This document shows, piece after piece, positions 7,820-48,792 of a stretch of DNA of 52,789 nt. A program made the position numbers and the translations under genes. Origin of the DNA: Desulfobacterales bacterium (GTDB lineage: Bacteria > Desulfobacterota > Desulfobacteria > Desulfobacterales > JAHEIW01); the NCBI GenBank assembly GCA_041559695.1, contig JBFFCW010000001.1, positions 1 to 52,789 of the forward strand. Direction: 5' to 3'. Within the stretch, counting starts at the first letter, position 1. Each line of letters opens with the position of its first letter. The notes under the pieces were generated by a model that was not told where the DNA came from, ran no database searches, and worked only from the letters and a program-made list of their open reading frames with translations.

Positions 7820-8386
7820 TCAGACAAGCAGCAGCCCGATAAAATTGACATATTCCTTTGGCGGCCATTCCACCGCCACACCGGCTTGCCGTGCCAGTTC
7901 GGTGATATCTATGCCGAAACCCTCGGGACTGGGGCGCGCTTTATAGGGGTGACGACAGGGTTCTCCCGGCGGCGCGCAGGCGTCGCACAATTTGCAGCCG
8001 CCCACGCATAGACCCAACGCCTGGTAGAATCCTTTCTCAAAAGCAGCCAATTCCAGATCAGCGACGGCTTCAGATAATTTTAGTTCAGCACTGAAATCCT
8101 GGCGATAATCATTTAGGTTTTTTATTTTTTCCCGTAGCACCACCAAAAACGCTTTACGGTAACTGCGCAAGGCCTCCCTGAATTCCGCCACACTTGGAAT
8201 ATGGGGTGGGCAAACCTTGCAAACGTCAAAATATTCACACAAGGGAACCTGGCACTTTAAGCGCATGCTCTGACGGGGATTAATTTCTTTGACTTCTATC
8301 GGGTAAATATCGACGCCCCACTTGCGCGCCACCGCCTCAAAGGTATCTGCTAAAGTCTGGCCGTTATCCATATCCCCTTTGCTCAC
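7820..8386 (-). CDS. DUF2284 Cys-rich predicted metal-binding protein
   Basis: LKCQVPLCEYFDVCKVCPP and CVGGCKLCDACAPPGEPC. It is a paralogue of the 42515 gene. The start (GTG 8386 or ATG 8371) is uncertain. Confidence 0.65.
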   Translation of the reverse strand: MSKGDMDNGQTLADTFEAVARKWGVDIYPIEVKEINPRQSMRLKCQVPLCEYFDVCKVCPPHIPSVAEFREALRSYRKAFLVVLREKIKNLNDYRQDFSAELKLSEAVADLELAAFEKGFYQALGLCVGGCKLCDACAPPGEPCRHPYKARPSPEGFGIDITELARQAGVAVEWPPKEYVNFIGLLLV

Positions 8387-8466: not shown

Positions 8467-9867
8467 TTAAAACTTCATTTTTTCCTTCAAACGATTGACG
8501 CCGGCGATTTCGATATCGAGCAGCTCGGCAATTCTTACTTTTGCCTCAATTCCCTTGGCGCAACCCGGGACAGACGTAATGATCCCTAAGTCCAGCTCCT
8601 CGCGGACCTCTCTCATTACGTGTACATCCGACAGGTCGGCCGGGGAAACTTTTAGCTTTTTGGCAACGTAGGCTTTTGCGTCGTTGATCCGCATCTTGCG
8701 GGCCATCTGCATGCGGGCCACCAGATCTCCGGCGGTCCTGATTCCACCCATTCCTGCTGCCACTCCGTGAGCTATCGACATCCCCATGGGATCTCCCACG
8801 CCAATCTACAAACCGTCTACTTTGGCAATTTCCACCATGGCCTTCGACGCCCGGCTGACTGAATCGATAGGCGGTGTCTCGAATATCGGCGAGCCGCCAA
8901 CACCCATTCCCATGTTCACATGGATGGGGATGTTGGACGCTTCAACGCACGCTTTTACAAAGGTCACCGCTCTGGCCACATTCCACGGCATGTTTTTGCT
9001 GGGCTTGGTGTTTACCACCGGGCCAAAAATATCCGCCCCGGCTTGCTCCACGAGCTTGACTTGATCATGGCAGTACAAACCAGCGAGTTGCTGACCTTCA
9101 TATTCCAGACCGCCGTGCATACCGAGTACAAATTCTCCGGCCATTCCCACTTCAATGCACATATCGGTGTTTTTTTTCAGATGCTCGACGGCGTGCAGGG
9201 TGGCCTTAAAATCCGTATCGCCCGCAGCCCCGGTGGTATCGAAGTTTATCCCGTCACAACCGACCTCTGCGAGTCTTTCGCATACATAAACCATGTCCCG
9301 AATGGCGTGCTCCACCGCCCCTTCCTGGGCCTCATAGGACTCCTGGATCTTGCCCGCGGGCAGCAAATCCGAAGGATTTCCAAAAGGCCCGTCGGGACTG
9401 TAGTACAGACCCAGGTTTGGCATGGCGCCATAAAAGAGCGGCAGAATCGTTACCAGCAGCGCATTTTCCATTTCCTGCTGTTCCATAGCAATAACCGGCT
9501 TTACCGGCTTAAAGCTATAATCGATATGTCCCAGCTCCATGGTATCGGCACAAAATGCCCTTTCATGGACCTGGATGCCCTGCACCCGGCTCAGCGGTAT
9601 GCCGACACCGCTGTTGCCCTGGTCTCCCATCACCCGCAGGGTTCCGATATCGTGGGTGACGACCACTTCGTTCCCCGGCTCCACACTTACAAACCGAGTG
9701 GGGTTGGTAAAGATGTCCAGCAGGATGTCCAGATCATCTTTTGACAGCGGCGCTATCTTGCCCTTGTCGGCGGCGTCTGCAGTGCCCGCCTCCAAGTCGC
9801 TCATTATTTCCTCGGAAGTCATTTCAATGAGCGCTCCGTCCCCCCGTCTAGTAAGGTATTTCGCCAT
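8467..9867 (-). CDS. mtbB: Dimethylamine:corrinoid methyltransferase MtbB with in-frame UAG (Pyl) at 8806-8808, codon 354
   Basis: ORFs 8806-9885 and 8467-8799 are in the same frame and are separated only by TAG. The junction [16 protein letters not shown] equals the Methanosarcina MtbB VDG(I/L)-Pyl-IGVGDPLGM. The alignment holds over the full length ([24 protein letters not shown]). A strong RBS (GGAGGTGA) precedes ATG 9867. Confidence 0.9.
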
Positions 9868-9881
9868 ATTCTCACCTCCTT

Positions 9882-10526
9882 TCAACTGAATATTTCTTTG
9901 AGTTTCATCACCGTATCACCGGCGTTTTCCGCCCAAAAAGTCGCACCGATTTTGGCAGCCCAGTGTTCAGTGGTCGCCGCACCGCCGACCATAGTGGTCA
10001 GCTTGTCTCGAATTCCCGCGTCTTTCAGGGCTTGCTCAAGGGCTTTTTGCCCCACCTGGGTCGTTGTCATCAGCGCCGAGGAACCGACAACATCTGCGTC
10101 GGCCTCTTTTGCTTTTTCCACAAACGTCGCAATCGGTACATCTCGGCCCAGATCGATGACCTCAAAGCCGTAAACCCTAAGCATGGTGGCGACAATGCCT
10201 TTGCCGATGTCATGCACGTCCCCTTCGACCGTCCCGATCACAACCTTGGCCAGTTTCTTGCCGACCTGGTCTGCGGGCATGGCCTGTTCCAGTACCTTTA
10301 CCGCTGCCGTCATCGCCTCGGACGCGATGATCAGATGCGGTAAAAAGACCTCTCCGCGATCAAAGAGGTCCCCCAGTTTCCGGATGCCTTCAGAAAGACC
10401 TTTTTCGATCATCTCAACCGGATCGAGACCCTCATCTAAATATTCCTGGGCCAATTTCACTGCAGCTTGCTCATTTGCATCAATGATGTGCTGGGCAGCC
10501 TTTTCCATGAATTCCGCTTTGTCCAT
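9882..10526 (-). CDS. mtbC: B12-binding corrinoid protein (MtbC-like)
   Basis: DxHxxG motif (GDVHDIGK) plus SALMTTT and GGA motifs. It lies immediately upstream of mtbB. Confidence 0.85.
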
Positions 10527-10696: not shown

Positions 10697-12394
10697 TCAA
10701 GTTTCACCCTTGGCAGCATACAATTTTTTTTGTACAAAGACTTTTTCCTGACAGGATTTTTCACATCTCCTGCAGGCAAGCCCATTGCATCGGGCCAGAT
10801 CGATGGTAATAGAAAATTTCCCCTCCTCCTCTTCCAGGACAAGGGCCTCCTCGGGACATTCTTCGATACAGTCCTCACAGCCAACGCAGCCTTCGAAAGC
10901 AATCGTTTTATGTTCACCAATATCGGAAATAATCTCCAGGCCCTTGATCCCAAGATCCGGAATATCCTTTTGCACTGTTTTGATGACTTCTGGAATCATC
11001 TCAGTCTCTTTTAACGGTGGAAGACCGAATTTTTCCAAAAACTGCTGGTACTGATTCATGGGCATCCCCTGGGTCCAATAAGAAAGTTCCAGGATATACA
11101 CCTGTTCAAATACCTTGGACTCAGCGAACATGCAGTGATGCTGTCGAAGATCATCGGCGATGCGCTTCATGCGCCAGAGTTCATCCACACGCTTGACCAT
11201 ATCCCTGGCCATGGCCAGGGACGAGTTTCCCACCTGGTAGATTTTGTTAACCCCGGGCGGTATCATGCCGATTTCCTGGGCTTTGAGCGCATCTACGTAA
11301 GTACCAGAAGCACCGGACATATAAGCGGTTTCGACATCTTCCAGTCGGATCCCGGCCTCCTGACACAGGGAGATATGACCGGCCCTGACCGCGCCGATGG
11401 CCTTGCCGGCTTCCTCAAGATCTTTCTCCGTAAACTTGATCCCGTCGGGCAAATGGATTTTTGCGTCCGAAGTATGGATCTTGGGAAGCCGAATGGTATG
11501 GGTTTTAAGGTTCTGGCTGATCAGGGCAATAACCCCGGTCCCGGTTATGCCGACGGCTTTTTCCAGTCCTTTTTCAAGCAACGCTCCCGTGGCTGGATCC
11601 ACCGTATCGCCCGGCTGAACCGTCATCGTGTCATCGAGGATAAATGTTTTCATCCGCCTGCTGATCGCTTGATCTTCCTGCGGGTTGTCTGCAACGCCGA
11701 TACCTTCACCTTTTAACGCCTCAAACTCGACATCGCAGATGGCCCCGGGAAGCGCCAATAGTCCATCTTCTATGTGTTGACCTTCCAGGGCCGGTCCGGC
11801 GGCTGTTGAACCGGTATAAACCGTGCCGTCGACGATCAGGGCCATCTCGGCATTCGTACCGTAGTCTGTGGTAATGGCGATTTCATCGCTGTTCAGCATG
11901 CCGGTCTGAATCATCATCGCCAGTGCATCGGCACCGATTTCATGCCGAACCGCCGGGGGAACCAGGATATCCGTGTTTGGCGGCAGATTGAGCGCGGAAA
12001 TTTCGCGAGCTTTCATGATTTGCGCGTCTCTTTTGGGAGCCACCACTCCCAAAGACGCCAGTTTCCGTTTTCCCGCATAGGCAAGATCCCTGATTTCGAT
12101 CTCCTGGAAAAGGGAAAGCTGGATGGGGTTGCCACAGACCGCCAGCCTGACCACCTCATTATTTTCGATCTTTAGATGGTCAATTACCCGGTTGACGGCA
12201 TGCACCACAATTTTGTGGGCTCGATCAAGACCCATCTCAACGGCAAAATGAAGGTGATCCATGACATTGGCGCCCGGAAGGGGATGCCGGGTGGTGACAG
12301 CGGTGGACAAAATCCTTCCATTTTGATCCAGATCGAGGGCCTGCCCGCGAAAACCACTGGTGCCCAAATCCAATGCAACACCCAGTCTTGCCAT
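10697..12394 (-). CDS. ramA: RamA-type methylamine corrinoid activation protein (ASKHA ATPase plus C-terminal 2x[4Fe-4S] ferredoxin)
   Basis: Near-colinear with M. barkeri RamA: ALDLGTSGFR, RLAVCGNPIQLSLFQ, IGADALAMM, TDYGTNAEMAL and LSYWTQGMP. The C-terminus carries CVGCEDCIEECP and CRRCEKSC. Confidence 0.9.
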   Translation of the reverse strand: MARLGVALDLGTSGFRGQALDLDQNGRILSTAVTTRHPLPGANVMDHLHFAVEMGLDRAHKIVVHAVNRVIDHLKIENNEVVRLAVCGNPIQLSLFQEIEIRDLAYAGKRKLASLGVVAPKRDAQIMKAREISALNLPPNTDILVPPAVRHEIGADALAMMIQTGMLNSDEIAITTDYGTNAEMALIVDGTVYTGSTAAGPALEGQHIEDGLLALPGAICDVEFEALKGEGIGVADNPQEDQAISRRMKTFILDDTMTVQPGDTVDPATGALLEKGLEKAVGITGTGVIALISQNLKTHTIRLPKIHTSDAKIHLPDGIKFTEKDLEEAGKAIGAVRAGHISLCQEAGIRLEDVETAYMSGASGTYVDALKAQEIGMIPPGVNKIYQVGNSSLAMARDMVKRVDELWRMKRIADDLRQHHCMFAESKVFEQVYILELSYWTQGMPMNQYQQFLEKFGLPPLKETEMIPEVIKTVQKDIPDLGIKGLEIISDIGEHKTIAFEGCVGCEDCIEECPEEALVLEEEEGKFSITIDLARCNGLACRRCEKSCQEKVFVQKKLYAAKGET

Positions 12395-17641: not shown

Positions 17642-19027
17642 ATGGCTTTCAAAGAGAAAGTGGGCGTGTTCGAAACTTATGATCGAGCACGCACCGGTCC
17701 CAGGGTCGATGAAAAGGAATGGGATCGAAAGATCACATTTCAAACGGCAAGCAAGTTAAAGGAAAAATACAAACTTAAATTCGACCGATCCAAGATCATC
17801 CCCACTGATACCGACATGATAGATCGATTATACCAGGCCGGTCTTGAAATGCTTGTGGAAATGGGTGTTTTTTGCATGGATACGGGTCGCGTCATCAAGT
17901 ACACTGAAGATGAAGTCCTGATGGCTGTTGCCGGAGCGCCTCATGAGCTTACGTTGGGTGAAGGTCGCGATGCGCGCCAGCTGGCAGGCAGAAGTTTCGA
18001 TGATCCCCGCCCACCCCTGAATCAAGGTGGTCCTACCGGGGCTCCTGTATCGGAAAACATTTTTATTCCCATGCATGAGGCCTACGCTAGAGAACCTTTG
18101 GTAGATGCCATCGTTAACGGGGTCTTGTCCACCATCAACGGCAGGGAGCCTAAGCCCGGTTCTCCATGGGAGATAGCCGCCGTCAAAGGAGAGGTCTCAA
18201 TGATCCGGATGGCGATGACGCGGGCCGGTCGTCCCGGCATGGCCATGTAGGGGAGCGAAACATCACTGACTGCCGCCGGTGTGGTGGCGGCTGATTTTCC
18301 TGGGGGCATGAGAGCCTGCGACAGCCACGAAGTGAGCCAATTAAACGAGCTTAAAATTGACATCAATGCGCTCACCTTCACGGCACATTACAGGTTAGCG
18401 GGCGACATCATCATGAGCGAGCAGATGCCAATCATTGGGGGCTGGGCCGGAGGGGTCGAGGAGACCTCTATCGTGAACGTCGCCACCCATTTGGCCGCTT
18501 TTATTATGGTCGGAGCGGACTGGCATTTGGACGGACCCATTCACGTACGCTGGGGCAACACCACGGCCAGGGAGCCGTTGATGGTTGCCGGCCATGCGTG
18601 TCGGGCTGTGGATCGCAATACGCACCTGTTGCTGGGAAATCAGTACTATACCTCCGCGGGACCTTGCACTGAAATGTGTCTGCTGGAAGCGGCGGCCCAG
18701 GCCATAACGGATACGGCCAGTGGCCGCGAGATCATGAGCGGATGCGCTTCGGCCAAAGGCGTGGCCCTGGATTATACCACCGCCATGGAAGCCCGGTTCA
18801 TGGCTTACGCAGCCAGAGCGGTGGCGGGAGTCGAAACTGAAAAGGTCAATGCGATGCTGGATAAGCTGGTGAGCATGTATGAGACCAAGTTCAAAGAGGC
18901 GCCCAAAGGCAAGACCTTTCAAGATTGCTACGATGTGAGCACCCTGACGCCTTCCGATGAGTATTTGAAGGTGTTTGATGGCGCGCTTAAAACCATGGAG
19001 AAAATCGGATTTAAATTTAAAATTTAG
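17642..19027 (+). CDS. mtmB: Monomethylamine:corrinoid methyltransferase MtmB with in-frame UAG (Pyl) at 18248-18250, codon 203
   Basis: ORFs 17642-18250 and 18281-19027 are in the same frame. AGRPGMAM-TAG-GSETSLTAAG..DSHEVSQLNELKID matches M. barkeri AGRPGMGV-Pyl-GPETSLSAQG..DSHEVSQLNELKID. The remainder is also colinear (GPCTEMCLLEAAAQAITDTASGREI). Confidence 0.9.
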
Positions 19028-37846: not shown

Positions 37847-40800
37847 ATGCCAGGAAATGAGGAAGATAAATATTTAGTCATTTTTCAGCCATCCGGGTGC
37901 CGGGGCTACCTTGAGAAAGGAACGAGCCTTAAAGAGGCCTCGGTGGCGCTGGGTGTTGATATAGAGGGCGTATGCGGCGAAAAGGCCATTTGCGGCACGT
38001 GCAAGGTTCGCATCGAAGAAGGTAATTTCGAGAAATACGGCATAACGTCAACCCGGGAAAATCTTTCCCCCATGGGGCCGACGGAAAGAAAGTTCTTCAA
38101 TCTCCAGCAGGAGGAAGAAGGCTACCGTCTGGCCTGCCAGACAAAGATACTGGGAGATGTCGTCCTGTTCGTCCCCGAGGAGAGCCGCATGGGCAAACAG
38201 GTCGTCCGCAAAGCGGCCACCGACAGGCCGATGAATTTAAACCCGGCGGTAAAGAAGTACTATGTGGAGCTTAAAAAGGCCACCCTGGAGGATACCCTCG
38301 GCGACCTGGAGCGGCTTACAAACGCACTTGAAAAAGAGTACAACCTGAGTAATCTCTCGATTGATTATCAGGTGCTCATGGAACTCCAAACCGTCGTACG
38401 TGAAGGTGATTGGAAGATAACCGCAACCGTCTGGCATAATAAAGAGATCATCAAAGTCGAGCCGGGACGTGTCGAAAAGGTTTACGGTCTTGCGGTGGAT
38501 GTGGGTACATCCACAGTTGCCGGTTACCTTTGTGATTTGACGGACGGCAAAGTTCTGACGACCGGCTCCATGATGAATCCGCAGGTGGTATATGGCGAAG
38601 ATGTAATGTCCCGTATCAGTTTCACCATGACCAACCCCAGAGGTCTCGAGATCCTAAACGGTGCCATTATTGACGGCCTCAACGGAGTTGCGGATGAGGT
38701 TGCATCCGCAGTGGGTATTAAACGACAGGATATCGTCGATATGTCCATCGTGGGCAATACCTGTATGCACCATATCTACCTGAATACCGATCCGAAATAT
38801 ATCGGTCGTTCCCCTTTCCCGCCCGCACTTCATCACTCAATCGATATTAAAGCCCGGGACTTTGGACTCAAAATAGAACCGGAGGCTGAAGTCGCCGGCA
38901 AGGGTATCTGGCCGCCCTGCCAGGTCGCATGCCCGGCCGGGGTCAACGGACAGGACTTCCTGTATCTCATCGCCCAGGGCAAGCACCGGGAAGCCCTCGA
39001 ACTGGTTAGGATGGCCATTCCCTTTGCCGGAGCGCTCGGGCGTATTTGCAACCATCCCTGTGAAACCGAATGCGAAAGACAATTTGTGGAAGAACCGCTT
39101 TCCATCCGCTCGCTGCATCGTTTTATTGCCGATTACGAGATCGAGCAGGGCCGGGAGAAAGCGGCACCCATCGAGAAAACAAAAGAGGAAAAGATTGCTG
39201 TCGTCGGTTCCGGGCCGGCCGGGCTTGCCTGCGCTTTTGAGCTGGTCAAAAACGGATATCCGGTGACGGTCTTTGAGGCGGAATCCGAGTGCGGCGGAAT
39301 GATGCGTTATGGCATACCCGAATACCGGCTGCCCAAAGAGATCCTGGATGACGAGATCAACTATATTAAGGAACTGGGTGTGGAGATAAAAACCAACAGC
39401 CCGGTGGACAGCATTGAGAGCCTTTTCAATCAGGGGTATAAGGCGATCTTTCTGGGTACGGGCGCCTGGTCAAGCTTGAAGCTGGAAATTCCTGATGAAG
39501 ATGCGGACGGCGTCATCCACGCCCTTGATTTTCTTAAGAAGGCCAATACCGGTGAAACGGTCGCGCTGGGTGATAAGGTGGCGGTTATTGGCGGCGGAAG
39601 CGTCGCCATCGATTCCGCCAGGCTGGCCCAGCGGCTGGGCGCCGGCGAAGTCAACCTGATTTGTCTGGAATCCACCGACCTGACCTGTGCGGACAGAATG
39701 ACGGCCCAGGACATGGAAATTGGACAGGCCGCGGAAGAAGGCGTTATTGTGCATCCGAATCTCGGCGTCGCCAAGATCCTGACGCAGGACGGCAAGGTCA
39801 CGGCCCTCGAAACTTCAAGTTGCGTCTCCGTGCTCGATTCGGAAGGCAGATTTGATCCTAAATTCAGCGACGAACCGACCCCCACCATACCGGCGGACAC
39901 CGTGATTGTTGCCATCGGTCAGAAACCGGACGGAAAAGACTTTAGCGAGCTGGAAAAATACCCGTCCGGTATTATCAAAGCAGACAAAACCACCCTGGAA
40001 ACAAATATTGCAGGGGTCTTTGCCGGCGGTGATGTGGCCTCCGGGCCGGCTGACGTCATCGGTGCTGTTGCCGGCGGTAAGAACGCCGCTATTTCCATTG
40101 AGCTTTATCTGGCCGGAATGGATGTTAAGGAATCCAGACCTGCGCCTCTTTTACGCATCGAAGAGGTGCCCAAGGATGGCGTGGTAAAAGAGGCGAGACA
40201 GGCGGAGCCCCTGCTCGAACTGCAAAAACGCAAAGGGCTTGCCGAGGTCGAGCTGGGCTATGAGGAGCAGGCGGCCAAACAGGAATCACAGCGTTGTCTG
40301 CACTGTGGCGTTTTTGCCCAGAAGGAATCCTCCGATATTGCCCAGGCCCGCGGCGTCGGGCTTAAAATCTCCCCGGGGGCCTATGTCCATGTGCTTCCGA
40401 TCGAGGCTGGCTTTGTCGGAGCCGATAATGTCGGGGTGCTCATTGCCGAAGAGCCTTACAAGCAGGATAAAATAAAGCTTATTATCGATATCGGAACCAA
40501 CGGTGAGATCATCTTCGGTAATAAAAAGATGCTGATCTCGGCATCCTGCGCCACCGGTCCTGCCTTTGAGGGCGCCGAGCTGAAATTCGGCATGCGCGCG
40601 GCGCCGGGGGCGATTGAAAAGGTGGAAATTAATCCGGAAACCAAAGATGTCCGCTTCAAAATTATTGATGAAACCCGCTGGAATACCGAGATGAAGTCGG
40701 AGGAAGTGGGCGCCAAGGGGCTCTGTGGATCCGGCATCATTGATGCCATCCCCCAGCTTTTTCTGGCAGGCGTTATCGACAAAACGGGAAAGTTTTTAAA

Positions 40801-41299
40801 GGACGATTCCAATCCCCGCCTGCGTATAGCGGATGACCAGTACGAGTATGTTATTGCCTGGGCCAAGGAGACGTCAATCGGTCAGGATGTTGTCGTCTGT
40901 CAGGACGATATCCGGGCGATACAGCTGGGTAAGGGTGCCATGTATGCGGGCAGCAAGATCCTGCTGGAAACCCTCGGAGTCGAGAAGGTAGACGAGGTCG
41001 TTTTGGCCGGTGCCTTTGGAAGTTACATAGACAAGGAATCGGCAGCGGTACTGGGGATGTTTCCCGACTGTGAACCGGAGAATGTCTATTCCGTGGGGAA
41101 TGCTGCGGGCGATGGTGCGCGTATGGCGCTGCTCGACGTTGATAAACGCAAGGAGGCCGATGAATTCGCCAGGAAGGTGGAGTACATAGAACTGACGGTG
41201 AATCCTGAGTTTGAAAAGACGTTTGCCAAATCTATGTGGATACCGCATATGAAGGATAAGTTTCCGAACCTCAGTCACATTTTACCGCAAAAAAAGTAA
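37847..41299 (+). CDS. RACo-type corrinoid reductive activase with an inserted GltD-like NAD(P)H/FAD/FeS oxidoreductase module (1150 aa)
   Basis: The N-terminus has a 2Fe-2S motif (CGEKAICGTCKV) and ASKHA motif GLAVDVGTSTVAGY. The insert at 38894-40345 carries CQVACPAG..CNHPCETECER, KIAVVGSGPAGLACAFEL, KVAVIGGGSVAIDSAR and FAGGDV. The ASKHA fold then resumes (AGFVGADN, IDIGTNGE, CATGPAFEGA). Confidence 0.85.
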   Translation: MPGNEEDKYLVIFQPSGCRGYLEKGTSLKEASVALGVDIEGVCGEKAICGTCKVRIEEGNFEKYGITSTRENLSPMGPTERKFFNLQQEEEGYRLACQTKILGDVVLFVPEESRMGKQVVRKAATDRPMNLNPAVKKYYVELKKATLEDTLGDLERLTNALEKEYNLSNLSIDYQVLMELQTVVREGDWKITATVWHNKEIIKVEPGRVEKVYGLAVDVGTSTVAGYLCDLTDGKVLTTGSMMNPQVVYGEDVMSRISFTMTNPRGLEILNGAIIDGLNGVADEVASAVGIKRQDIVDMSIVGNTCMHHIYLNTDPKYIGRSPFPPALHHSIDIKARDFGLKIEPEAEVAGKGIWPPCQVACPAGVNGQDFLYLIAQGKHREALELVRMAIPFAGALGRICNHPCETECERQFVEEPLSIRSLHRFIADYEIEQGREKAAPIEKTKEEKIAVVGSGPAGLACAFELVKNGYPVTVFEAESECGGMMRYGIPEYRLPKEILDDEINYIKELGVEIKTNSPVDSIESLFNQGYKAIFLGTGAWSSLKLEIPDEDADGVIHALDFLKKANTGETVALGDKVAVIGGGSVAIDSARLAQRLGAGEVNLICLESTDLTCADRMTAQDMEIGQAAEEGVIVHPNLGVAKILTQDGKVTALETSSCVSVLDSEGRFDPKFSDEPTPTIPADTVIVAIGQKPDGKDFSELEKYPSGIIKADKTTLETNIAGVFAGGDVASGPADVIGAVAGGKNAAISIELYLAGMDVKESRPAPLLRIEEVPKDGVVKEARQAEPLLELQKRKGLAEVELGYEEQAAKQESQRCLHCGVFAQKESSDIAQARGVGLKISPGAYVHVLPIEAGFVGADNVGVLIAEEPYKQDKIKLIIDIGTNGEIIFGNKKMLISASCATGPAFEGAELKFGMRAAPGAIEKVEINPETKDVRFKIIDETRWNTEMKSEEVGAKGLCGSGIIDAIPQLFLAGVIDKTGKFLKDDSNPRLRIADDQYEYVIAWAKETSIGQDVVVCQDDIRAIQLGKGAMYAGSKILLETLGVEKVDEVVLAGAFGSYIDKESAAVLGMFPDCEPENVYSVGNAAGDGARMALLDVDKRKEADEFARKVEYIELTVNPEFEKTFAKSMWIPHMKDKFPNLSHILPQKK

Positions 41300-44629: not shown

Positions 44630-45664
44630 ATGAAACTCAGCCCAAAGAAAAGAGCATTCAAAGCGCTATTGGGAAGCAGAACCGATCGCGTGCCCGTCAC
44701 AACATTGACGGGTTGTGGCGGTTCCGTAAATGTTGACATGCAAAAGGCAACCGGCATCTTTTGGCCTGCTGCTCATAAGGACCCAAAATTAATGGCCAAA
44801 CTTGCTATTGCCGGCTATGAAATCGGCGGCATAGAATGTGTGAAGCTCCCATTTCACAACATCGTGGAAGCCGAAGCTTTAGGATGTAAAACAAGATATC
44901 CCAAACAACGGCATCTTTACCCTGTCGTCGTGGAGCATCCCTGCACGAATCCTCAGGACTTAAAGATGCCGAATCGCATCCTTGATTCGGGCAGACTGCC
45001 GGTTGTTCTGGAAGCAATACGAATAGCAAGAGAACTCGTAGGAGACTTTCTTCCGGTCTCGAGCCATGTTATCGGTCCGTTCACGCTTGCTTGCGAACTG
45101 GTCGGGATAGAGCGCTTTTCGATATGGTCTCTCAAAAATATTGAGCATGTAAGATCCGTTCTTGATTTTGCGACCGAATTTATCATTGCGTTCGGTAAAG
45201 CTCAATACCGGGCCGGTTCTGATTTTGTAACCGTTGCAGACGGCTCTCTCGCGCAGAATTTGGTAACACCTGAAGTGCTTCATCGCTTCTTAAAACCCGC
45301 TTTAATTCGAATTGCTGAAAATTTTTATGGTATCCGGCTGCTATACATCGGCGGCAAAGAAGAACCGATGGTTCCGTTTCTGGCGGAGTGCGGTTATGAT
45401 GGAATCAGCGTGGCAGAGACAGTGGATATTGCCAAGATCAAACCTCTTGTCGGGGAAGTCAAAATCCTTGGCAATGTCAGCTCTAAAACCACGTTAACCC
45501 GGGGCTCTCCCAAAGAGGTTAAATCCGAAGTCAAGAAGGCGATTGAAGGTGGGGCGGATCTGATTGAGCCCAGTTGTGGTATTCCCCCCGAAACCCCTAC
45601 CGCCAACATCAGGGCGATGGTTGAAGCGGTGAAAACATATGGGGGCCCGCTAAAGCCGAGCTGA
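44630..45664 (+). CDS. UroD-family (MtaA/MtbA-like) methyltransferase
   Basis: KKRAFKALLGSRTDRVPV..ECVKLPFHNIVEAEALG..LYIGG. ATG 44630 is chosen although its RBS is weak; the ORF track's start is at 44567. Confidence 0.7.
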   Translation: MKLSPKKRAFKALLGSRTDRVPVTTLTGCGGSVNVDMQKATGIFWPAAHKDPKLMAKLAIAGYEIGGIECVKLPFHNIVEAEALGCKTRYPKQRHLYPVVVEHPCTNPQDLKMPNRILDSGRLPVVLEAIRIARELVGDFLPVSSHVIGPFTLACELVGIERFSIWSLKNIEHVRSVLDFATEFIIAFGKAQYRAGSDFVTVADGSLAQNLVTPEVLHRFLKPALIRIAENFYGIRLLYIGGKEEPMVPFLAECGYDGISVAETVDIAKIKPLVGEVKILGNVSSKTTLTRGSPKEVKSEVKKAIEGGADLIEPSCGIPPETPTANIRAMVEAVKTYGGPLKPS

Positions 45665-45708
45665 TGCCGGTCGTTGATTGCGGCCTTGAGCCTAGGGAGA
45701 ATAAAACA

Positions 45709-45945
45709 ATGAAACATATAGATTTTAATAAATATCTAAGCAGTCGAAATAAGAAGTTAAAAAAAAGAAGTCCGGAAAGTACCCGGATCCAGACCGAGAA
45801 AGAACCATCGGCAATCATTATCCCCTTTCACGCCATGTTAAAAAATGAGTTGAAGCTATACCGCGGTAAATCCAAATCCGCTCGTCTGGGTGTGCTTGGG
45901 AAATACGATGAACTCATCGCCATGGCCCGCAAAAGGAAGTCCTAA
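45709..45945 (+). CDS. Small basic hypothetical protein (78 aa)
   Basis: GGGAG RBS 9 nt before ATG 45709. No recognisable family. Confidence 0.3.
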   Translation: MKHIDFNKYLSSRNKKLKKRSPESTRIQTEKEPSAIIIPFHAMLKNELKLYRGKSKSARLGVLGKYDELIAMARKRKS

Positions 45946-46040
45946 AATGCGTTTTCACCGTGAGGGAGAACCGAGGCCCATGGGTGTTTGGATTCGATGC
46001 CAATATGGATTAAAAATAGACCAGACAGGAAGGGACCGTC

Positions 46041-46517
46041 ATGGGAATAATCTGCCATGGGTGGGATGCCAATGATTTCAAATTTATCGAGAATTGTTTG
46101 CCCCAAAAAGCATCTTGCTCAACAGCAGGGTGAGGTTCAAGCATCGTTCGAGGGGTCCTCGAAAAGTTGCTGAACGTTCTAAAAGCGATTGAAGCAAAAA
46201 AGGCAACGGCGGAGTTTGAAGTTTCTGAGAGCGCAACTGAAAAGCTCCAGGCGCTGTTAGCCCGACGGAAGAATGCTTCTTCTATCCGGATCCTATTGGT
46301 AGAAGCTGCATGACCCGGTCAGACGCTGGCAATGGTTCTGGATGAACCAAGAAATGGCGATACGGTAATCGATCACAATGGGATCACCTTTGTCATGGCA
46401 CAAGAATTTTTCGATCGTGTCAAACCGATGGCCGTGGATTTCAATACCGCCCCCAACAGTTCCGCGTTTTCCATTTCCTCGGTTGCCTATAATTTTTCCT
46501 TGCGGGTTCTATTGTAA
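46041..46517 (+). CDS. Candidate HesB/IscA-like selenoprotein with two in-frame UGA codons (46131-46133 and 46311-46313)
   Basis: ATG 46041 follows AGGAAGG. Reading through gives ..SCSTAG-U-GSS..FEVSESATEKLQALL..IRILLVEAA-U-PGQTLAMVLDEPRNGDTVIDHNGITFVM. The second U sits where IscA/HesB proteins have the first conserved Cys (..GCSG..). No ATG or GTG lies in frame between the two UGAs. Confidence 0.45.
46147..46163 (+). other. SECIS-like hairpin after the first UGA
   Basis: TTCGAGG-GGT-CCTCGAA (7-bp perfect stem, G-rich apical loop). It starts 14 nt after the UGA. Confidence 0.35.
46333..46349 (+). other. SECIS-like hairpin after the second UGA
   Basis: TGGTTC-TGGAT-GAACCA (6-bp stem, loop containing GG). 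It starts 20 nt after the UGA. Confidence 0.35.
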
Positions 46518-46624
46518 AGGAGAAAAAGAGCGCCTCAATCGGTGGAACGCTTTTGCAGTTCTCTCCGGCGCCAAGATACAAGGGCTTGGGTAATCGGTAA
46601 CAACTTTTTTCCGTTTGCCCTCAA

Positions 46625-48007
46625 TCAAGATATTTTTTGTTTAAACTTGTTGACACAGTTAATTTCCAAATTTAGCAATTTTGCGATGCGAAACTTGGCA
46701 TCAATTCCTTTTGCCACGCCAGGGCATTCATTCAGGGCCCCAAGATCCATATCTTCCCTGACTTCTCTCATGGCAACCGGATCTGCGATATCTTCCACCG
46801 AAACCCCGAGCCTGCCGGCCACATACTTCTTGGCGTCCTCAATCCGCATCGCCCGGTTCAGCTGCAAACGCGCCACCAGATCTCCGGCAGTGCGTAATCC
46901 GCCCATCCCCGAAACGATTGCATGTGCCGCATGCATCCCGTAAGGGTCGCCAACGCCCACCTACAATCCGTCCAATCTACAAATCTCAACATGCGCTTTG
47001 GAAGCTCTCGCCAGGGCGTCCACCGGCGGGGAAATCGCCATTGGAACGCCACCCACACCCATTCCCAGATTGGCATGTACCGGGATATCGGATGCCTCCG
47101 AACAGGCCTTTGTATAGGTGAGGGCCCGGGCCAGGTTGAAAGGCAGTGATTTGCTGGGGACGACATTGATGGCCGGTCCGAAGATCGTAGCCCCTGCTTT
47201 TTGTGCCAGTTTTATTTGGTCGTGGGGATAGAGCCCCGCCAATCGGACCCCATCGTATTCGACCTCACCATGCAACCCCATTATGAATTCCGAAGCCATT
47301 CCCATTTCAATGCCCATCTCGGGATATTTCTTTTTAAGGATCTCCACTGCTTGGAGCGCCGCGAGAAACTCCGCATCTCCCGCCGCAGCGGTGGTGTCAA
47401 AATTAATGCCATCTGCTCCGGTTTCATACATTTCACTGCCCACATAGACCATGTCTTTTACCGCATAATCTATCGCCTCTTCAAAAGAGGCCCTGCCTTC
47501 GGCGATCTTCCCCTGAGCGAACAGATCCAGTGGATTGGGGCAGGGACCGACGGGTTGGCTGTACAATCCCAAATTCGGCATCGCACCATAAAGAAGGGCC
47601 GGAATGGTAATTAATAACGCCTGTTCCATGATGGGTTTCTCGAATACCACGATGGGTTTTACCGGTTTATAGCTGTAGTCAATGTGAGCAAGCTCCAGGG
47701 TATCGGCGCCGAGTGCCCTTTCAAAAATCTGTAATGATTGGATTTTACTCAGCGAGACGTGTGCGCGCTTGATTTTAGTGGTACAGCTGTCGTAGGTAAG
47801 GCAAACCTCCTTTCCTTTTTCAACACCGACCACCCGATCCGTACATTTGTGGATTTCATACAAGTACTGAAGTTCATCTTTGGTAAGAACCGGGATCTTT
47901 GCTCTGTCTGCAGCATCGGTCGTCCCTTTTTCAAGATCTTCCCGGAGTTCGGCTCCGGTCATTTCGCACCTGATACCGTCACCCATTCTGGTTTGGATTT
48001 TTTCCAT
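46625..48007 (-). CDS. Divergent MtbB-family methyltransferase with in-frame UAG (Pyl) at 46961-46963, codon 349
   Basis: ORFs 46961-48028 and 46625-46960 abut in the same frame. LDGL-TAG-VGVGDPYGM retains the MtbB Pyl context. Other regions are conserved ([36 protein letters not shown]), but the [11 protein letters not shown] segment of canonical MtbB is missing. GGAGGAAG RBS before ATG 48007. Confidence 0.85.
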
Positions 48008-48024
48008 TGTCTTCCTCCATTTAC

Positions 48025-48792
48025 TCAATCGGTTTTAGAATTCAGATATGCCTTGACCGAATCCCAGGTCTTTAATAAGATTCTATGGGTGCCTTCACAG
48101 ACGTCCGTACGGAAACCAAACATCTCATTGAAAGCCTCGATATTTCGTCTCATTTCTGCAAGACACATAATCGGTGTTTGAATCAGCAGAGAGCGTTCAT
48201 AATGCTTGAATAGCCGTTTCGCCATTTCAGCGCTTAGGTTGCCGAACTCCTGCTCGAACATGCGCTTCCAATGGTATGTCCAGCCGGGTATCATAAAAAA
48301 GGTGCCCGCCACCCGGCACTGTTCTTCGTAATAGCGTTTGCGCCCACCGATAATCAGACCGATACAATCGTCAACCGGATGATCCTCATCCATGGGGATA
48401 AAAACAGGCACCCCGGCATCGGACAGCAGTCCCCCGGGATTTTCAAATGCGTTCCCGCACAAACCGTATCCAAGCATCAGAGCATCCACGCGAGGCCCAA
48501 ATGCCATTGCTGCCTCAATTAATCCCTGTTGAAGGGTGTGTTTGCGAATATGCAAGGCCAGCTCTAAAACACCGACCAAGACTTCCAGAGCAATTTGGGG
48601 ATCCGGGGTGAAATCATTCAGATGGGCGATCCGATTTAACTTGTCTTTATTGGTGGACTCAAAGGCAGCAATCAAGCGCGCGGATCGCTCATTCTCAAGA
48701 ACCGTAATGCGGCCGACTTCCTTATCCACCGCCAACAATTCGGCAAATTCCAGTTCCAGAATCTCACAGGTCAGCACGCCCAAAATTGCCAT
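48025..48792 (-). CDS. DUF1638-like protein (family assignment tentative)
   Basis: 255-aa ORF with an LGYGLCGN motif. It lies immediately upstream of the mtbB paralogue, with its stop 18 nt before that gene's start. Confidence 0.5.
   Translation of the reverse strand: MAILGVLTCEILELEFAELLAVDKEVGRITVLENERSARLIAAFESTNKDKLNRIAHLNDFTPDPQIALEVLVGVLELALHIRKHTLQQGLIEAAMAFGPRVDALMLGYGLCGNAFENPGGLLSDAGVPVFIPMDEDHPVDDCIGLIIGGRKRYYEEQCRVAGTFFMIPGWTYHWKRMFEQEFGNLSAEMAKRLFKHYERSLLIQTPIMCLAEMRRNIEAFNEMFGFRTDVCEGTHRILLKTWDSVKAYLNSKTD

What the first reader, a model, noticed from the sequence alone, without database searches (positions are those of the whole stretch)
46041..46517. A candidate selenoprotein: a HesB/IscA-like ORF with two in-frame UGA codons, each followed by a G-loop hairpin
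The ORF track shows only a 61-aa fragment (46332-46517), whose sequence (LDEPRNGDTVIDHNGITFVM..) is the C-terminal half of a HesB/IscA-like fold. Extending upstream in frame gives FEVSESATEKLQALL..IRILLVEAA-UGA-PGQTLAMVLDEP. The UGA (46311-46313) sits where IscA/HesB proteins have their first conserved Cys. No ATG or GTG start lies between this UGA and an earlier in-frame UGA (46131-46133). An ATG with a good RBS is at 46041. Each UGA is followed 14-20 nt later by a stable hairpin with GG in the apical loop (46147-46163, TTCGAGG-GGT-CCTCGAA; 46333-46349, TGGTTC-TGGAT-GAACCA), which is the general layout of bacterial SECIS elements. HesB-like selenoproteins are known from deltaproteobacteria and methanogens. 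A two-Sec version with an extra N-terminal CSTAG-U-G segment would be unusual. The locus would then combine UAG=Pyl and UGA=Sec recoding within 1 kb.
Basis: partly seen in the sequence, partly recalled or inferred. Interest (0 to 1): 0.7.

Follow-up and report, generated by a model that had tools for sequence, protein, structure and literature searches.

The report
Two-selenocysteine fusion: small selenoprotein plus HesB
This gene most likely encodes a 158-residue protein containing two selenocysteines, formed by fusing a known HesB/IscA-type selenoprotein to a previously undescribed 61-residue selenoprotein that in related bacteria is a separate neighbouring gene.

Summary
ORF 46041-46517 (+) has in-frame TGA codons at 46131-46133 and 46311-46313, each followed by the described hairpin.

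The second TGA lies at the first conserved Cys of an IscA/HesB domain (NCBIfam NF038090 'IscA_HesB_Se'). It is TGA in every relative whose DNA was read, and its hairpin shows a U-A / U.G / C-G covariation series.

The N-terminal 'extra segment' is a separate 61-aa gene in relatives. It was found in about 20 loci, always with TGA at codon 31 and the GGU-loop hairpin. pN/pS is 0.34 before the TGA and 0.19 after it, against 1.3-2.9 in shifted frames, so translation runs through the TGA. It matches no Pfam or NCBIfam family and has no Cys-containing homologue among 1.84 billion representative proteins.

The small gene and HesB lie next to each other in either order. They overlap as ATGTTTGA in one lineage and are fused in frame in the window and two independent metagenome contigs. 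Those two contigs have no canonical start codon from which the HesB domain could begin on its own.

UGA ends 17 of 49 long ORFs in the window, so the genetic code is standard. The neighbours are 74-87% identical to a Desulfobacteraceae MAG. Sec machinery could not be checked, and function is inferred only.

The parts
46027..46035 (+). Shine-Dalgarno-like AGGAAGGGA, 5 nt before ATG 46041
   Evidence: Read directly from the sequence. Similar AGGAAGG(A/G)A occurs upstream of the ATG in L007 and L008.
46041..46517 (+). Complete fused ORF: 158 codons (two of them TGA) plus stop TAA
   Evidence: Translation. The same in-frame fusion is present in L007 and L008, which differ from the window by 40-57 nt, mostly at third positions (15/9/33 and 11/5/24).
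46041..46214 (+). N-terminal module (codons 1-58), homologous to a stand-alone 61-aa selenoprotein gene. Conserved features are GWD, C19, C26, G30, U31, GSS and a long helix
   Evidence: About 20 loci carry it. pN/pS is 0.34 and 0.19 in this frame against 0.63-2.9 in the others. No Pfam or NCBIfam hit. No relatives among 1.84e9 representatives except N-halves truncated at the UGA.
46131..46133 (+). UGA1, predicted Sec31
   Evidence: TGA at this codon in all 15 distinct copies, with purifying selection on both sides.
46147..46163 (+). SECIS-like hairpin 1: UUCGAGG-GGU-CCUCGAA
   Evidence: 7 bp, GGU loop, 20 nt from UGA to loop, -7.6 kcal/mol. Conserved in 14 sequences; the A-U pair becomes G.U in 5. 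The 60-nt local fold is -19.5 kcal/mol, z = -2.6.
46215..46514 (+). HesB/IscA-like domain (codons 59-158) with a Cys-free C-terminal tail
   Evidence: NF038090 at 80.6 bits (cut-off 85). Stand-alone relatives score 86.3 and 101 bits. PF01521 24-25 bits. PDB 2apn E = 0.0056.
46311..46313 (+). UGA2, predicted Sec91, at the first conserved Cys position of A-type carriers
   Evidence: Aligned to Cys in 2apn and 1s98. TGA in 10 distinct DNA copies, including a Desulfobacteraceae MAG.
46333..46349 (+). SECIS-like hairpin 2: UGGUUC-UGGAU-GAACCA
   Evidence: 6 bp, loop UGGAU, spacing always 25 nt. One stem pair occurs as U-A (7 copies), U.G (1) and C-G (2).
45664..45945 (+). Conserved upstream neighbour, a 93-aa ORF with no family
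   Evidence: 70-75% identical copies lie upstream of HesB or the small ORF in L007, L010 and L018. No Pfam or NCBIfam hit.
46625..48028 (-). Convergent mtbB (dimethylamine:corrinoid methyltransferase) with Pyl codon TAG at 46961-46963 and PYLIS at 46864-46963
   Evidence: TIGR02368 E = 3.5e-109. In most related loci the small ORF sits about 45 nt upstream of mtbB on the same strand.

Best explanation
The ORF 46041-46517 encodes one 158-residue protein with selenocysteine at positions 31 and 91. Each UGA is recoded by the bacterial SelB/tRNA-Sec route, directed by its own small hairpin with a G-rich loop inside the coding sequence, 20 and 25 nt downstream. These steps are inferred from the anatomy; the conservation and coding selection are shown. 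The protein is a natural fusion of two selenoprotein genes that are separate in relatives. One is a 61-aa small selenoprotein with no known family and the motif C19-x6-C26-x4-U31-GSS followed by a helix. The other is a HesB/IscA-type selenoprotein of the NF038090 family, whose Sec replaces the first ligand Cys of A-type Fe-S carriers. The two genes occur next to each other in both orders, overlap (ATGTTTGA) in a lineage where they stand alone, and are fused here, so they most likely work as one unit. The proposed function is inferred and of lower confidence. This HesB clade has lost the Cys-rich C-terminal tail that more distant family members keep. The small module, whose 'STAG-U-GSS' resembles the ErpA/IscA 'STCGCGSSF' tail, may supply the missing ligands. 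Sec91 together with Cys26 and Sec31 would then hold a metal, an Fe-S cluster or a sulfur/selenium species. In this organism that activity would serve the Fe-S-rich, corrinoid-dependent, Pyl-dependent dimethylamine methyltransferase system in which the gene sits.
For: Sequence and both TGAs.
UGA is otherwise a normal stop, ending 17 of 49 long ORFs.
HesB identity and Sec position.
TGA conserved at UGA2 in 10 distinct DNA copies with fixed 25-nt spacing and a U-A/U.G/C-G series.
HesB-like is an experimentally verified selenoprotein family that is common in Deltaproteobacteria (PMC13188914; PMC1794560).
Small ORF: TGA at codon 31 in 15 distinct copies. Third-position bias 10/10/22. pN/pS 0.34 upstream and 0.19 downstream of the TGA, against 1.3-2.9 in shifted frames for the downstream half. 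Hairpin conserved in 14 sequences.
Both hairpins meet the published bacterial SECIS geometry from PMC13188914 Fig. 2.
Fusion: in-frame junction in the window, L007 and L008, from three independent assemblies that differ by 40-57 nt, mostly at third positions. L007 and L008 have no canonical start between UGA1 and codon 85.
Partnership: HesB followed by the small ORF in L001, L002 and L010. The small ORF overlapping HesB in L020/L021 and L027-L029, in a context without methylamine genes.
Tail loss: P0019 and P0020 end in ...SCGSSCSC and ...CGPSCGTSCG, whereas this clade ends ...SISSVAYNFSLRVLL. Local motif match to the 2apn tail.
Bacterial origin: neighbours are 74-87% identical to a Desulfobacteraceae MAG. 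Marine Deltaproteobacteria that use both Sec and Pyl are documented (PMC1976440, PMC8318568).
Against: No Sec machinery gene and no tRNA-Sec is in the window, and no other selenoprotein gene is evident there.
The small ORF has no Cys-containing homologue, which is the usual criterion for predicting a selenoprotein.
The hairpins are small. About 3-6% of arbitrary TGAs in the window do as well, and hairpin 2 alone (-6.8) misses the -7.5 kcal/mol cut-off.
Covariation at hairpin 1 is limited to A-U to G.U. Constraint on its synonymous sites is only a trend (p = 0.07).
The window's HesB domain scores 80.6 bits, just under the NF038090 cut-off of 85.
The motif resemblance to the IscA/ErpA tail is not statistically significant (-0.1 bits).
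L005 has a tail-less HesB(U) with no small ORF within its 16.6-kb locus. Many loci have the small ORF without an intact HesB.
One distant homologue has a true Trp codon at the Sec column.
The structure model of the small protein is a low-confidence single-sequence prediction.
Confidence: 0.78

Rival explanations
1. There are two separate products. Translation from ATG 46041 stops at UGA1 and gives a 30-aa peptide. The HesB selenoprotein, with one Sec, starts independently downstream, for example at TTG 46167.
For: In most relatives HesB is a separate gene that starts with its own ATG at 'MFEVSE'. The window has an in-frame TTG at 46167. Gene callers report the N-terminal 30-aa half as a product.
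Against: TTG 46167 is TTT in L007 and CTT in L008, and those loci have no ATG, GTG or TTG in frame before codon 85, which lies inside the HesB fold. The HesB ATG itself has been replaced by GAG or GGG in all three fused copies. Codons 32-51 after UGA1 are under purifying selection in the same frame, with pN/pS 0.19. In stand-alone copies those codons are followed by a proper stop, not by HesB.
Confidence: 0.07
2. The locus is a decaying pseudogene. A rearrangement joined a leader fragment to a HesB gene that lost its start codon, and the TGAs are ordinary stops.
For: The locus is rearrangement-prone. Gene order is swapped among loci, L012 and L013 keep only a HesB remnant, and L011 has a partial second copy of the small ORF with an inverted mtbB.
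Against: Three diverged copies keep the same frame, both TGAs, both hairpins and the final stop. Their differences are concentrated at third positions: 15/9/33 with 26 synonymous against 23 non-synonymous codons, 11/5/24 and 10/5/21. There are no frameshifts and no extra stops.
Confidence: 0.05
3. The UGAs are read through, but not as selenocysteine. They would be decoded as Trp, Cys or Gly by a suppressor or near-cognate tRNA, or under a lineage-specific code.
For: Gene callers translated these genes with UGA = Trp. One distant homologue (P0021) has a genuine TGG Trp at the HesB Sec column. Sec machinery was not observed.
Against: UGA terminates 17 of 49 long ORFs in the window, so there is no genome-wide reassignment. 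The UGA2 position is the ligand Cys of A-type carriers and the known Sec site of the HesB-like selenoprotein family. Both UGAs are followed at fixed spacing by conserved hairpins with G-rich loops, which unspecific suppression would not need.
Confidence: 0.05
4. The small-ORF region is conserved as a regulatory leader or RNA element of mtbB, for example a selenium-responsive upstream ORF, and does not encode a functional protein module.
For: In most loci it lies about 45 nt upstream of mtbB on the same strand. It contains a stable conserved hairpin.
Against: The substitution pattern is that of a protein: pN/pS 0.19-0.34 only in this frame. The unit also occurs with HesB far from any mtbB. In the window it faces away from mtbB, which is convergent. 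No Rfam family matches.
Confidence: 0.05

Closest known systems
HesB-like / IscA-HesB selenoproteins (NCBIfam NF038090 'IscA_HesB_Se'; TIGR01911 'HesB_rel_seleno')
   Same: IscA/HesB fold. Sec is encoded by UGA at the first conserved ligand Cys, with a SECIS hairpin immediately downstream. The family is typical of Deltaproteobacteria and other anaerobes.
   Different: The window's copy has no start codon of its own and is fused behind another selenoprotein module. The local motif is U-P-G-Q, not the 'UxGP' listed for TIGR01911. The TIGR01911 score is only 20-29 bits against a cut-off of 66. The C-terminal tail has no Cys, whereas more distant NF038090-like members end in Cys-rich tails.
A-type Fe-S cluster carriers IscA / SufA / ErpA (PDB 1r94, 1s98, 1x0g, 2apn)
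   Same: Same domain. The Sec column corresponds to Cys35 of IscA. The small module carries 'STAG-U-GSS', which resembles the C-terminal 'STCGCGSSF' ligand motif.
   Different: Canonical carriers have three Cys ligands in one chain, one central and a C-terminal CxC. Here the central ligand is Sec and the C-terminal CxC is absent. The tail-like motif lies on a separate or N-terminally fused module, is followed by a long helix, and has Ala where the first Cys of CGC would be.
Known double-Sec fusion selenoproteins (e.g. HUGP/GUXX-star fusion NF041212, MbdU NF045648, arsenite methyltransferase/DUF2284 NF041536) listed in PMC13188914
   Same: Bacterial proteins with 2-3 Sec that arose by joining two selenoprotein modules, each UGA with its own SECIS.
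   Different: The families are unrelated. None combines a HesB-like domain with a second selenoprotein, and the small module matches none of the NCBIfam selenoprotein models.
Bacterial SECIS elements (E. coli fdhF type; consensus model of Zhang and Gladyshev as summarised in PMC13188914)
   Same: [quoted passage not shown]
   Different: The core stems are very short (7 and 6 bp). Hairpin 2 alone is weaker than the model's -7.5 kcal/mol. No covariance model exists in Rfam to score them.
Dual Sec + Pyl users among marine Deltaproteobacteria (Olavius delta-1 symbiont, PMC1976440; sediment Deltaproteobacteria, PMC8318568)
   Same: The same kind of organism and gene set: mttB, mtbB and mtmB with Pyl, pylB, and many selenoproteins including HesB-like.
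   Different: Those papers do not describe a small selenoprotein next to mtbB or HesB, or a two-Sec HesB fusion. 'HesB' does not occur in the main text of PMC8318568.

Membership tests
NF038090 IscA_HesB_Se (HesB/IscA-type selenoprotein) | Whole-protein HMM score at or above the curated cut-off of 85 bits | tested here: inconclusive
   The window's protein scores 80.6 bits with U read as C and 75.6 with X, just below the cut-off. Stand-alone relatives at 64-77% identity score 86.3 (P0002) and 101 (L020) and pass; L005 scores 82.8.
NF038090 IscA_HesB_Se (HesB/IscA-type selenoprotein) | Sec (UGA) or Cys at the first conserved ligand position of the IscA fold | tested here: met
   UGA2 aligns with the conserved Cys of 2apn and 1s98. 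TGA is present in 10 distinct homologous DNA sequences.
TIGR01911 HesB_rel_seleno (the 'HesB-like' family of the selenoprotein literature) | HMM score of at least 66.35 bits; motif UxGP | tested here: not met
   Scores are 20.3-29.1 bits and the motif here is U-P-G-Q. The protein is related to this sub-family but is not a member.
A-type Fe-S carrier (IscA/SufA/ErpA, Pfam PF01521) | Pfam gathering score of 26.3 bits | tested here: inconclusive
   24.2-25.4 bits, E = 2-4e-5. Precomputed PF01521 hits exist on relatives P0019-P0021.
A-type Fe-S carrier (IscA/SufA/ErpA, Pfam PF01521) | C-terminal CxC (CGCGxSF) ligand motif in the same chain | tested here: not met
   The domain ends ...FSISSVAYNFSLRVLL with no Cys. 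All NF038090 matches stop at model position 91 of 101.
Bacterial SECIS-dependent selenoprotein (applies to both UGAs) | In-frame UGA conserved among homologues, with coding conservation on both sides | tested here: met
   UGA1: 15 copies, pN/pS 0.34 upstream and 0.19 downstream. UGA2: 10 copies. Fused ORF: third-position bias.
Bacterial SECIS-dependent selenoprotein (applies to both UGAs) | [quoted passage not shown] | tested here: met
   Hairpin 1: loop GGU, 7 bp, 20 nt, -7.6 kcal/mol. Hairpin 2: loop UGGAU, 6 bp, 25 nt, -6.8 kcal/mol for the core and -15 kcal/mol for the 60-nt local fold. This was my own re-implementation, not bSECISearch. The background pass rate is about 3%.
Bacterial SECIS-dependent selenoprotein (applies to both UGAs) | Existence of Cys-containing homologues (Sec/Cys pair) | tested here: not met
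   For the small module no such homologue was found, by word-indexed search or by exhaustive HMMER over 1.84e9 representatives. For the HesB domain no Cys form was found among the close relatives retrieved here, but the literature reports Cys forms of HesB-like proteins (PMC1794560).
Bacterial SECIS-dependent selenoprotein (applies to both UGAs) | selA, selB, selC (tRNA-Sec) and selD present in the genome | not testable with these tools
   No tRNA gene is in the window and no sel genes are among the annotated ORFs. The rest of the genome is not available. Support is indirect only: the Desulfobacteraceae affinity and the published Sec trait of such bacteria.
Bacterial SECIS-dependent selenoprotein (applies to both UGAs) | Selenium shown in the protein (75Se labelling or mass spectrometry) | not testable with these tools
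   This needs an experiment.

The most novel reading that the evidence does not exclude
The 61-aa module may be a new, obligately Sec-containing protein family with no Cys form anywhere. It would act as the detachable 'ligand tail' of an A-type carrier. Together with a HesB protein that has lost its own Cys tail, it would form a split carrier, or in this window a circularly permuted and fused one. The binding site of that carrier would be built from two selenocysteines plus a cysteine. [quoted passage not shown]
Probability: 0.25. Interest if true: 0.75.

Novelty: new variant of a known kind. Interest (0 to 1): 0.58.

Why it matters
HesB-like selenoproteins are already known, so that half of the finding is routine, although it is mis-annotated by every gene caller.

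Three things are new. First, the small gene appears to be a selenoprotein family absent from Pfam, from NCBIfam and from a 2026 inventory of 119 prokaryotic selenoprotein families. It also lacks the Cys homologues on which most selenoprotein discovery pipelines depend, which explains why it has been missed. Second, a natural gene fusion, together with adjacency in both orders and an overlapping-gene arrangement, ties this small protein to HesB. That gives a concrete and testable hypothesis for the still unknown function of HesB-like selenoproteins: a two-part selenium-based ligand site. Third, the fused gene sits inside a pyrrolysine-dependent methylamine operon of marine sulfate-reducer-like bacteria. 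One mRNA neighbourhood therefore needs both expansions of the genetic code, which is relevant for annotating metagenomes from such sediments.

Tried and rejected
- Rfam, at gathering threshold on the whole window and at E <= 10 on 45900-46700, found no SECIS or other RNA family at the locus. It found only PYLIS elements elsewhere.
- The promoter and terminator scan gave nothing above background.
- A search for a second copy of either module in the window found none.
- A scan for other TGA-interrupted genes in the window, as in-window evidence of Sec use, found none that was convincing.
- Pfam and NCBIfam at E <= 10 on three versions of the small ORF gave no hits.
- The exhaustive HMMER search with the small ORF returned only truncated N-halves and a spurious 938-aa repeat protein, P0016, which I rejected as low-complexity repetition.
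- An alignment-based prediction was abandoned because MAFFT misplaced the C-terminal fragments.
- The single-sequence AF2 model of the small protein (pLDDT 79 for the best model, 53-62 for the others, pTM 0.36) gave no Foldseek match in the PDB (best E = 6.8). I use it only as a weak hint that U31 caps a helix.
- Excess constraint on synonymous sites in hairpin 1 was only a trend: 2 of 5 variable against 39 of 48, p = 0.07.
- I considered that UGA might be reassigned genome-wide, because homologues are stored with W. I rejected this because UGA ends 17 of 49 genes and the stored W is TGA in the DNA, with one true TGG exception in a distant homologue.
- I considered an archaeal origin, which would require a SECIS in the 3' UTR. 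I rejected it on the 74-87% identity of neighbours to a Desulfobacteraceae MAG and on the bacterial two-component and ABC-transporter genes.
Full report
**1. Observation**

The frame that starts at ATG 46041 is preceded by AGGAAGGGA at 46027-46035. It reads MGIICHGWDANDFKFIENCLPQKASCSTAG-TGA-GSSIVRGVLEKLLNVLKAIEAKKATAEFEVSES...IRILLVEAA-TGA-PGQTLAMVLDEP...SISSVAYNFSLRVLL-TAA. The TGAs are at 46131-46133 and 46311-46313. The mechanical ORF list shows only the pieces: 30 aa, 48 aa from TTG 46167, and 61 aa from ATG 46332.

The two hairpins are at the stated coordinates. The first is TTCGAGG-GGT-CCTCGAA at 46147-46163. The second is TGGTTC-TGGAT-GAACCA at 46333-46349. [quoted passage not shown] The first hairpin has a 7-bp stem, a GGU loop, 20-nt spacing and -7.6 kcal/mol. 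The second has a 6-bp stem, a UGGAU loop, 25-nt spacing and -6.8 kcal/mol. Its 60-nt local fold is -15 kcal/mol, and that of the first is -19.5 kcal/mol with z = -2.6. About 3% of the 1888 TGA triplets in the window have an equal or better hairpin. The hairpins alone are therefore suggestive, not decisive.

**2. Context and organism**

The window is a methylamine-utilisation island. Rfam finds three PYLIS elements, two for mtbB and one for mttB. The window also holds an mtmB split at TAG, a pylB (TIGR03910, 441 bits), corrinoid proteins and two RACo/RamA-like activators, one of them fused to a flavoprotein (1150 aa). It further holds URO-D-type methyltransferases, an MtrH/MtgA-like protein, DUF2284, CobO, DUF1638 and DUF169.

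UGA is an ordinary stop here: 17 of 49 long ORFs end in TGA. No tRNA gene is present, and I found no other TGA-interrupted gene.

A genome-collection scan found one syntenic locus in an uncultured Desulfobacteraceae MAG (L005). Its neighbouring proteins are 74-87% identical to those of the window. NarL-type two-component genes and periplasmic binding proteins are also present. This places the window in a Desulfobacterales-like bacterium, so the bacterial rule applies, with the SECIS inside the ORF directly after the UGA. Marine Deltaproteobacteria that use both Sec and Pyl are documented (PMC1976440, PMC8318568).

**3. The HesB half**

Residues 59-158 match NCBIfam NF038090 'IscA_HesB_Se' (80.6 bits, E = 8e-23, cut-off 85) and Pfam Fe-S_biosyn (24-25 bits, cut-off 26.3). 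Stand-alone relatives pass the NF038090 cut-off at 86.3 and 101 bits. In alignments to the solved A-type carriers 2apn and 1s98, the UGA2 column is the conserved central Cys.

Ten database homologues all begin 'MFEVSEK...' and show 'W' at this column. Their DNA shows TGA, so the W comes from code-4 gene models chosen on short contigs. In 10 distinct DNA copies, including the Desulfobacteraceae MAG and a 52%-identical relative, the TGA is followed at an invariant 25 nt by the same hairpin. One stem pair appears as U-A (7 copies), U.G (1) and C-G (2), which is a stepwise compensatory series.

HesB-like proteins are an experimentally verified selenoprotein family that is common in Deltaproteobacteria (PMC13188914; PMC1794560). 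This half is therefore a known kind of selenoprotein, although it is truncated or mistranslated in the databases.

**4. The N-terminal half is a separate, undescribed selenoprotein gene in relatives**

One homologue (P0001) contained, downstream of its HesB part, the string MGIICRGWD...CCTAG-W-GSSVIRGVLERLLNVLKAIE. Protein and metagenome searches then produced about 20 loci with this unit. In every one it is 30 codons, then TGA, then about 30 codons, ending in a normal stop.

It is protein-coding through the TGA. Differences between the window and L001 fall 10/10/22 by codon position, and 13 of 27 differing codons are synonymous, against 2-6 in the other frames. Over 15 distinct copies, pN/pS is 0.34 for codons 1-30 and 0.19 for codons 32-51. 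For codons 32-51 the shifted frames give 1.3 and 2.9.

The hairpin after the TGA is conserved in 14 sequences. Its only frequent change is A-U to G.U. Constraint on synonymous sites in the stem is a non-significant trend (p = 0.07).

The invariant residues are G7, W8, D9, C19, C26, G30, U31 and G32-S33-S34, followed by an amphipathic helix. C5 is not invariant.

The unit has no Pfam or NCBIfam match even at E <= 10. An exhaustive HMMER search of 1.84 billion representative proteins found no relative other than N-terminal halves cut at the UGA, so no Cys form exists. A 2026 table of 119 prokaryotic selenoprotein families has no counterpart.

A single-sequence AlphaFold model gives a beta-alpha-beta-alpha unit with residue 31 at the N-cap of the long helix. 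It is of low reliability (best pLDDT 79, the others 53-62, pTM 0.36). Foldseek finds nothing similar in the PDB.

**5. Relation between the two genes, and the fusion**

Three arrangements occur:
- (a) [orf93] - HesB(U) - small(U) - mtbB on one strand (L001, L002, L010). In many loci the HesB gene is absent or reduced to a remnant (L004, L012-L014, L018).
- (b) Small(U) directly followed by HesB(U), with the stop of the first overlapping the start of the second in another frame (GCGATGTTTGA). This is seen in L020/L021 and three assemblies, L027-L029. There the pair stands alone among peptide-transport, amidohydrolase and radical-SAM genes, far from any methylamine gene.
- (c) The same order but fused in frame, with the HesB ATG replaced by GAG or GGG and no stop. 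This is seen in the window and in two independent metagenome contigs, L007 and L008.

The three fused copies differ by 40-57 nt, mostly at third positions (15/9/33, 11/5/24 and 10/5/21). They keep both TGAs, both hairpins and the final stop.

Those loci have no ATG, GTG or TTG in frame between UGA1 and codon 85, which lies inside the HesB fold. The HesB domain of this sub-lineage can therefore be made only by reading through UGA1. The fusion is real and under selection. It also shows that the two proteins are functionally linked.

**6. How it most likely works**

*Shown:* two conserved in-frame UGAs; coding selection across them; conserved hairpins of SECIS geometry; a standard code elsewhere in the window; and the fusion.

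*Inferred from established knowledge of bacterial Sec insertion:* SelB bound to GTP and Sec-tRNA(Sec) binds each hairpin as the ribosome reaches the UGA and inserts Sec. The product is a 158-residue protein with Sec31 and Sec91.

*Function (inferred, lower confidence):* canonical A-type carriers hold their cluster with one central Cys and a C-terminal CxC. More distant members of this HesB(U) family keep Cys-rich tails (...SCGSSCSC...CGPSCGTSCG; TGA verified in L026). The clade associated with the small gene ends in a Cys-free tail, and all its NF038090 matches stop at model position 91 of 101. The small protein's 'S-T-A-G-U-G-S-S-[IV]' resembles the ErpA/IscA tail 'S-T-C-G-C-G-S-S-F'. phmmer aligned the two locally, but the score (-0.1 bits) is not significant.

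I therefore propose that the small module supplies the missing ligands, in trans where it is a separate gene and in cis here. The result would be a carrier site built from Sec91, Sec31 and Cys26 (and perhaps Cys19) for a metal, an Fe-S cluster or a sulfur/selenium species. In this organism it would plausibly serve the Fe-S-rich RACo/RamA activators or the corrinoid proteins of the dimethylamine pathway.

Two observations count against this proposal. L005 has a tail-less HesB(U) with no small gene within its 16.6-kb locus. Many loci keep the small gene next to mtbB without an intact HesB.

**7. Rival explanations**

- Termination at UGA1 with an independent HesB start is contradicted by the missing start codons and by selection downstream of UGA1.
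- A pseudogene is contradicted by three intact, diverged copies that show a coding substitution pattern.
- Read-through as another amino acid is unlikely. UGA is a frequent stop, the site is the known Sec/Cys ligand position, and both sites carry fixed-distance hairpins. One distant homologue, P0021, does have a true TGG at the column. It lies next to an FdhA gene split at CART-TGA-H.
- A purely regulatory leader of mtbB is contradicted by the protein-type substitution pattern and by the occurrence of the pair away from mtbB.

**8. Comparison with what is known, and novelty**

The HesB half is a member of, or immediately adjacent to, NF038090. It is not TIGR01911: the scores are 20-29 bits against 66, and the motif is UPGQ, not UxGP. 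Double-Sec fusion selenoproteins are known as a class, and so are organisms that use both Sec and Pyl.

The new elements are the small family, which has no Cys homologue; its linkage to HesB and mtbB; and this particular two-Sec architecture. I rate the finding as a new variant of a known kind, of moderate to good interest.

The main gap is that the Sec machinery and the protein product could not be examined. The decisive tests are a search of the source genome for selABCD, mass spectrometry for three diagnostic peptides, 75Se labelling, and interaction and metal-binding assays.

Noticed in passing
window 17642-19027 (+): This is an mtmB (monomethylamine methyltransferase) gene split by an in-frame TAG at 18248-18250. 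The first 202 aa match Pfam MtmB positions 2-195 of 450. Unlike mtbB and mttB, it gave no PYLIS hit in Rfam at the gathering threshold.
   Followed up: partly
window 4732-5859 (-): pylB (methylornithine synthase, TIGR03910, 440.7 bits against a cut-off of 348) lies in the same window as four Pyl-containing methyltransferase genes. pylT, pylS, pylC and pylD were not seen, and ARAGORN finds no tRNA gene.
   Followed up: partly
window 8467-9885 (-) and 7820-8386 (-), 10697-12394 (-): A second, diverged mtbB copy (54% identical to the first, with its own PYLIS) has a DUF2284 protein and a RamA-like RACo/ferredoxin activator beside it. It has no small selenoprotein ORF and no HesB gene nearby.
   Followed up: partly
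window 37847-41299 (+): A 1150-aa protein fuses a complete RACo-type corrinoid activator (Fer2, linker, middle and ASKHA C-terminal domains) with an inserted Fer4_20 and FAD/NAD(P) pyridine-nucleotide-disulfide oxidoreductase module. It is conserved at 74-94% in L004, L005 and L018.
   Followed up: no
L011 4224-4298 and 4686-6177: A partial second copy of the small ORF (first 25 codons) follows the MtaA-like gene. mtbB is inverted between it and a complete small ORF. This suggests that the small ORF region is a breakpoint for inversions in this locus.
   Followed up: no
L012 5196-5270; L013 3391-3465: Only the last 25 codons of a HesB gene survive upstream of an intact small ORF and mtbB. HesB is therefore decaying in some lineages while the small selenoprotein gene is kept.
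   Followed up: no
L025 8001-8366 and 8514-11210: A distant HesB-family member (P0021, 43% identical) has a genuine TGG (Trp) at the Sec/Cys ligand column and a long Cys-containing tail. It sits next to an FdhA gene that is called as two ORFs because of an in-frame TGA in the classic CART-U-H motif.
   Followed up: partly
window 45664-45945 (+): A 93-aa basic ORF with no Pfam or NCBIfam match is conserved at 70-75% immediately upstream of HesB or the small ORF in L007, L010 and L018. It appears to belong to the same gene cluster.
   Followed up: partly
L001 722-886; L002 1075-1299: The spacer between HesB and the small ORF is conserved between these two contigs in the small ORF's frame, and includes another in-frame TGA (RRWIFHC[KE]L-TGA-KAFSGLSFVWYGDTFD). 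The two contigs are closely related, so this may be plain relatedness or a conserved 5' leader. The window and L007 have stops there.
   Followed up: no
P0001-P0010, P0019, P0020 (protein database entries): Public protein collections store these selenoproteins with Trp at the Sec position, because a code-4 gene model was chosen on short contigs, or as fragments cut at the UGA. 'W' in such entries is an annotation artefact that can be used to find UGA-containing genes.
   Followed up: yes
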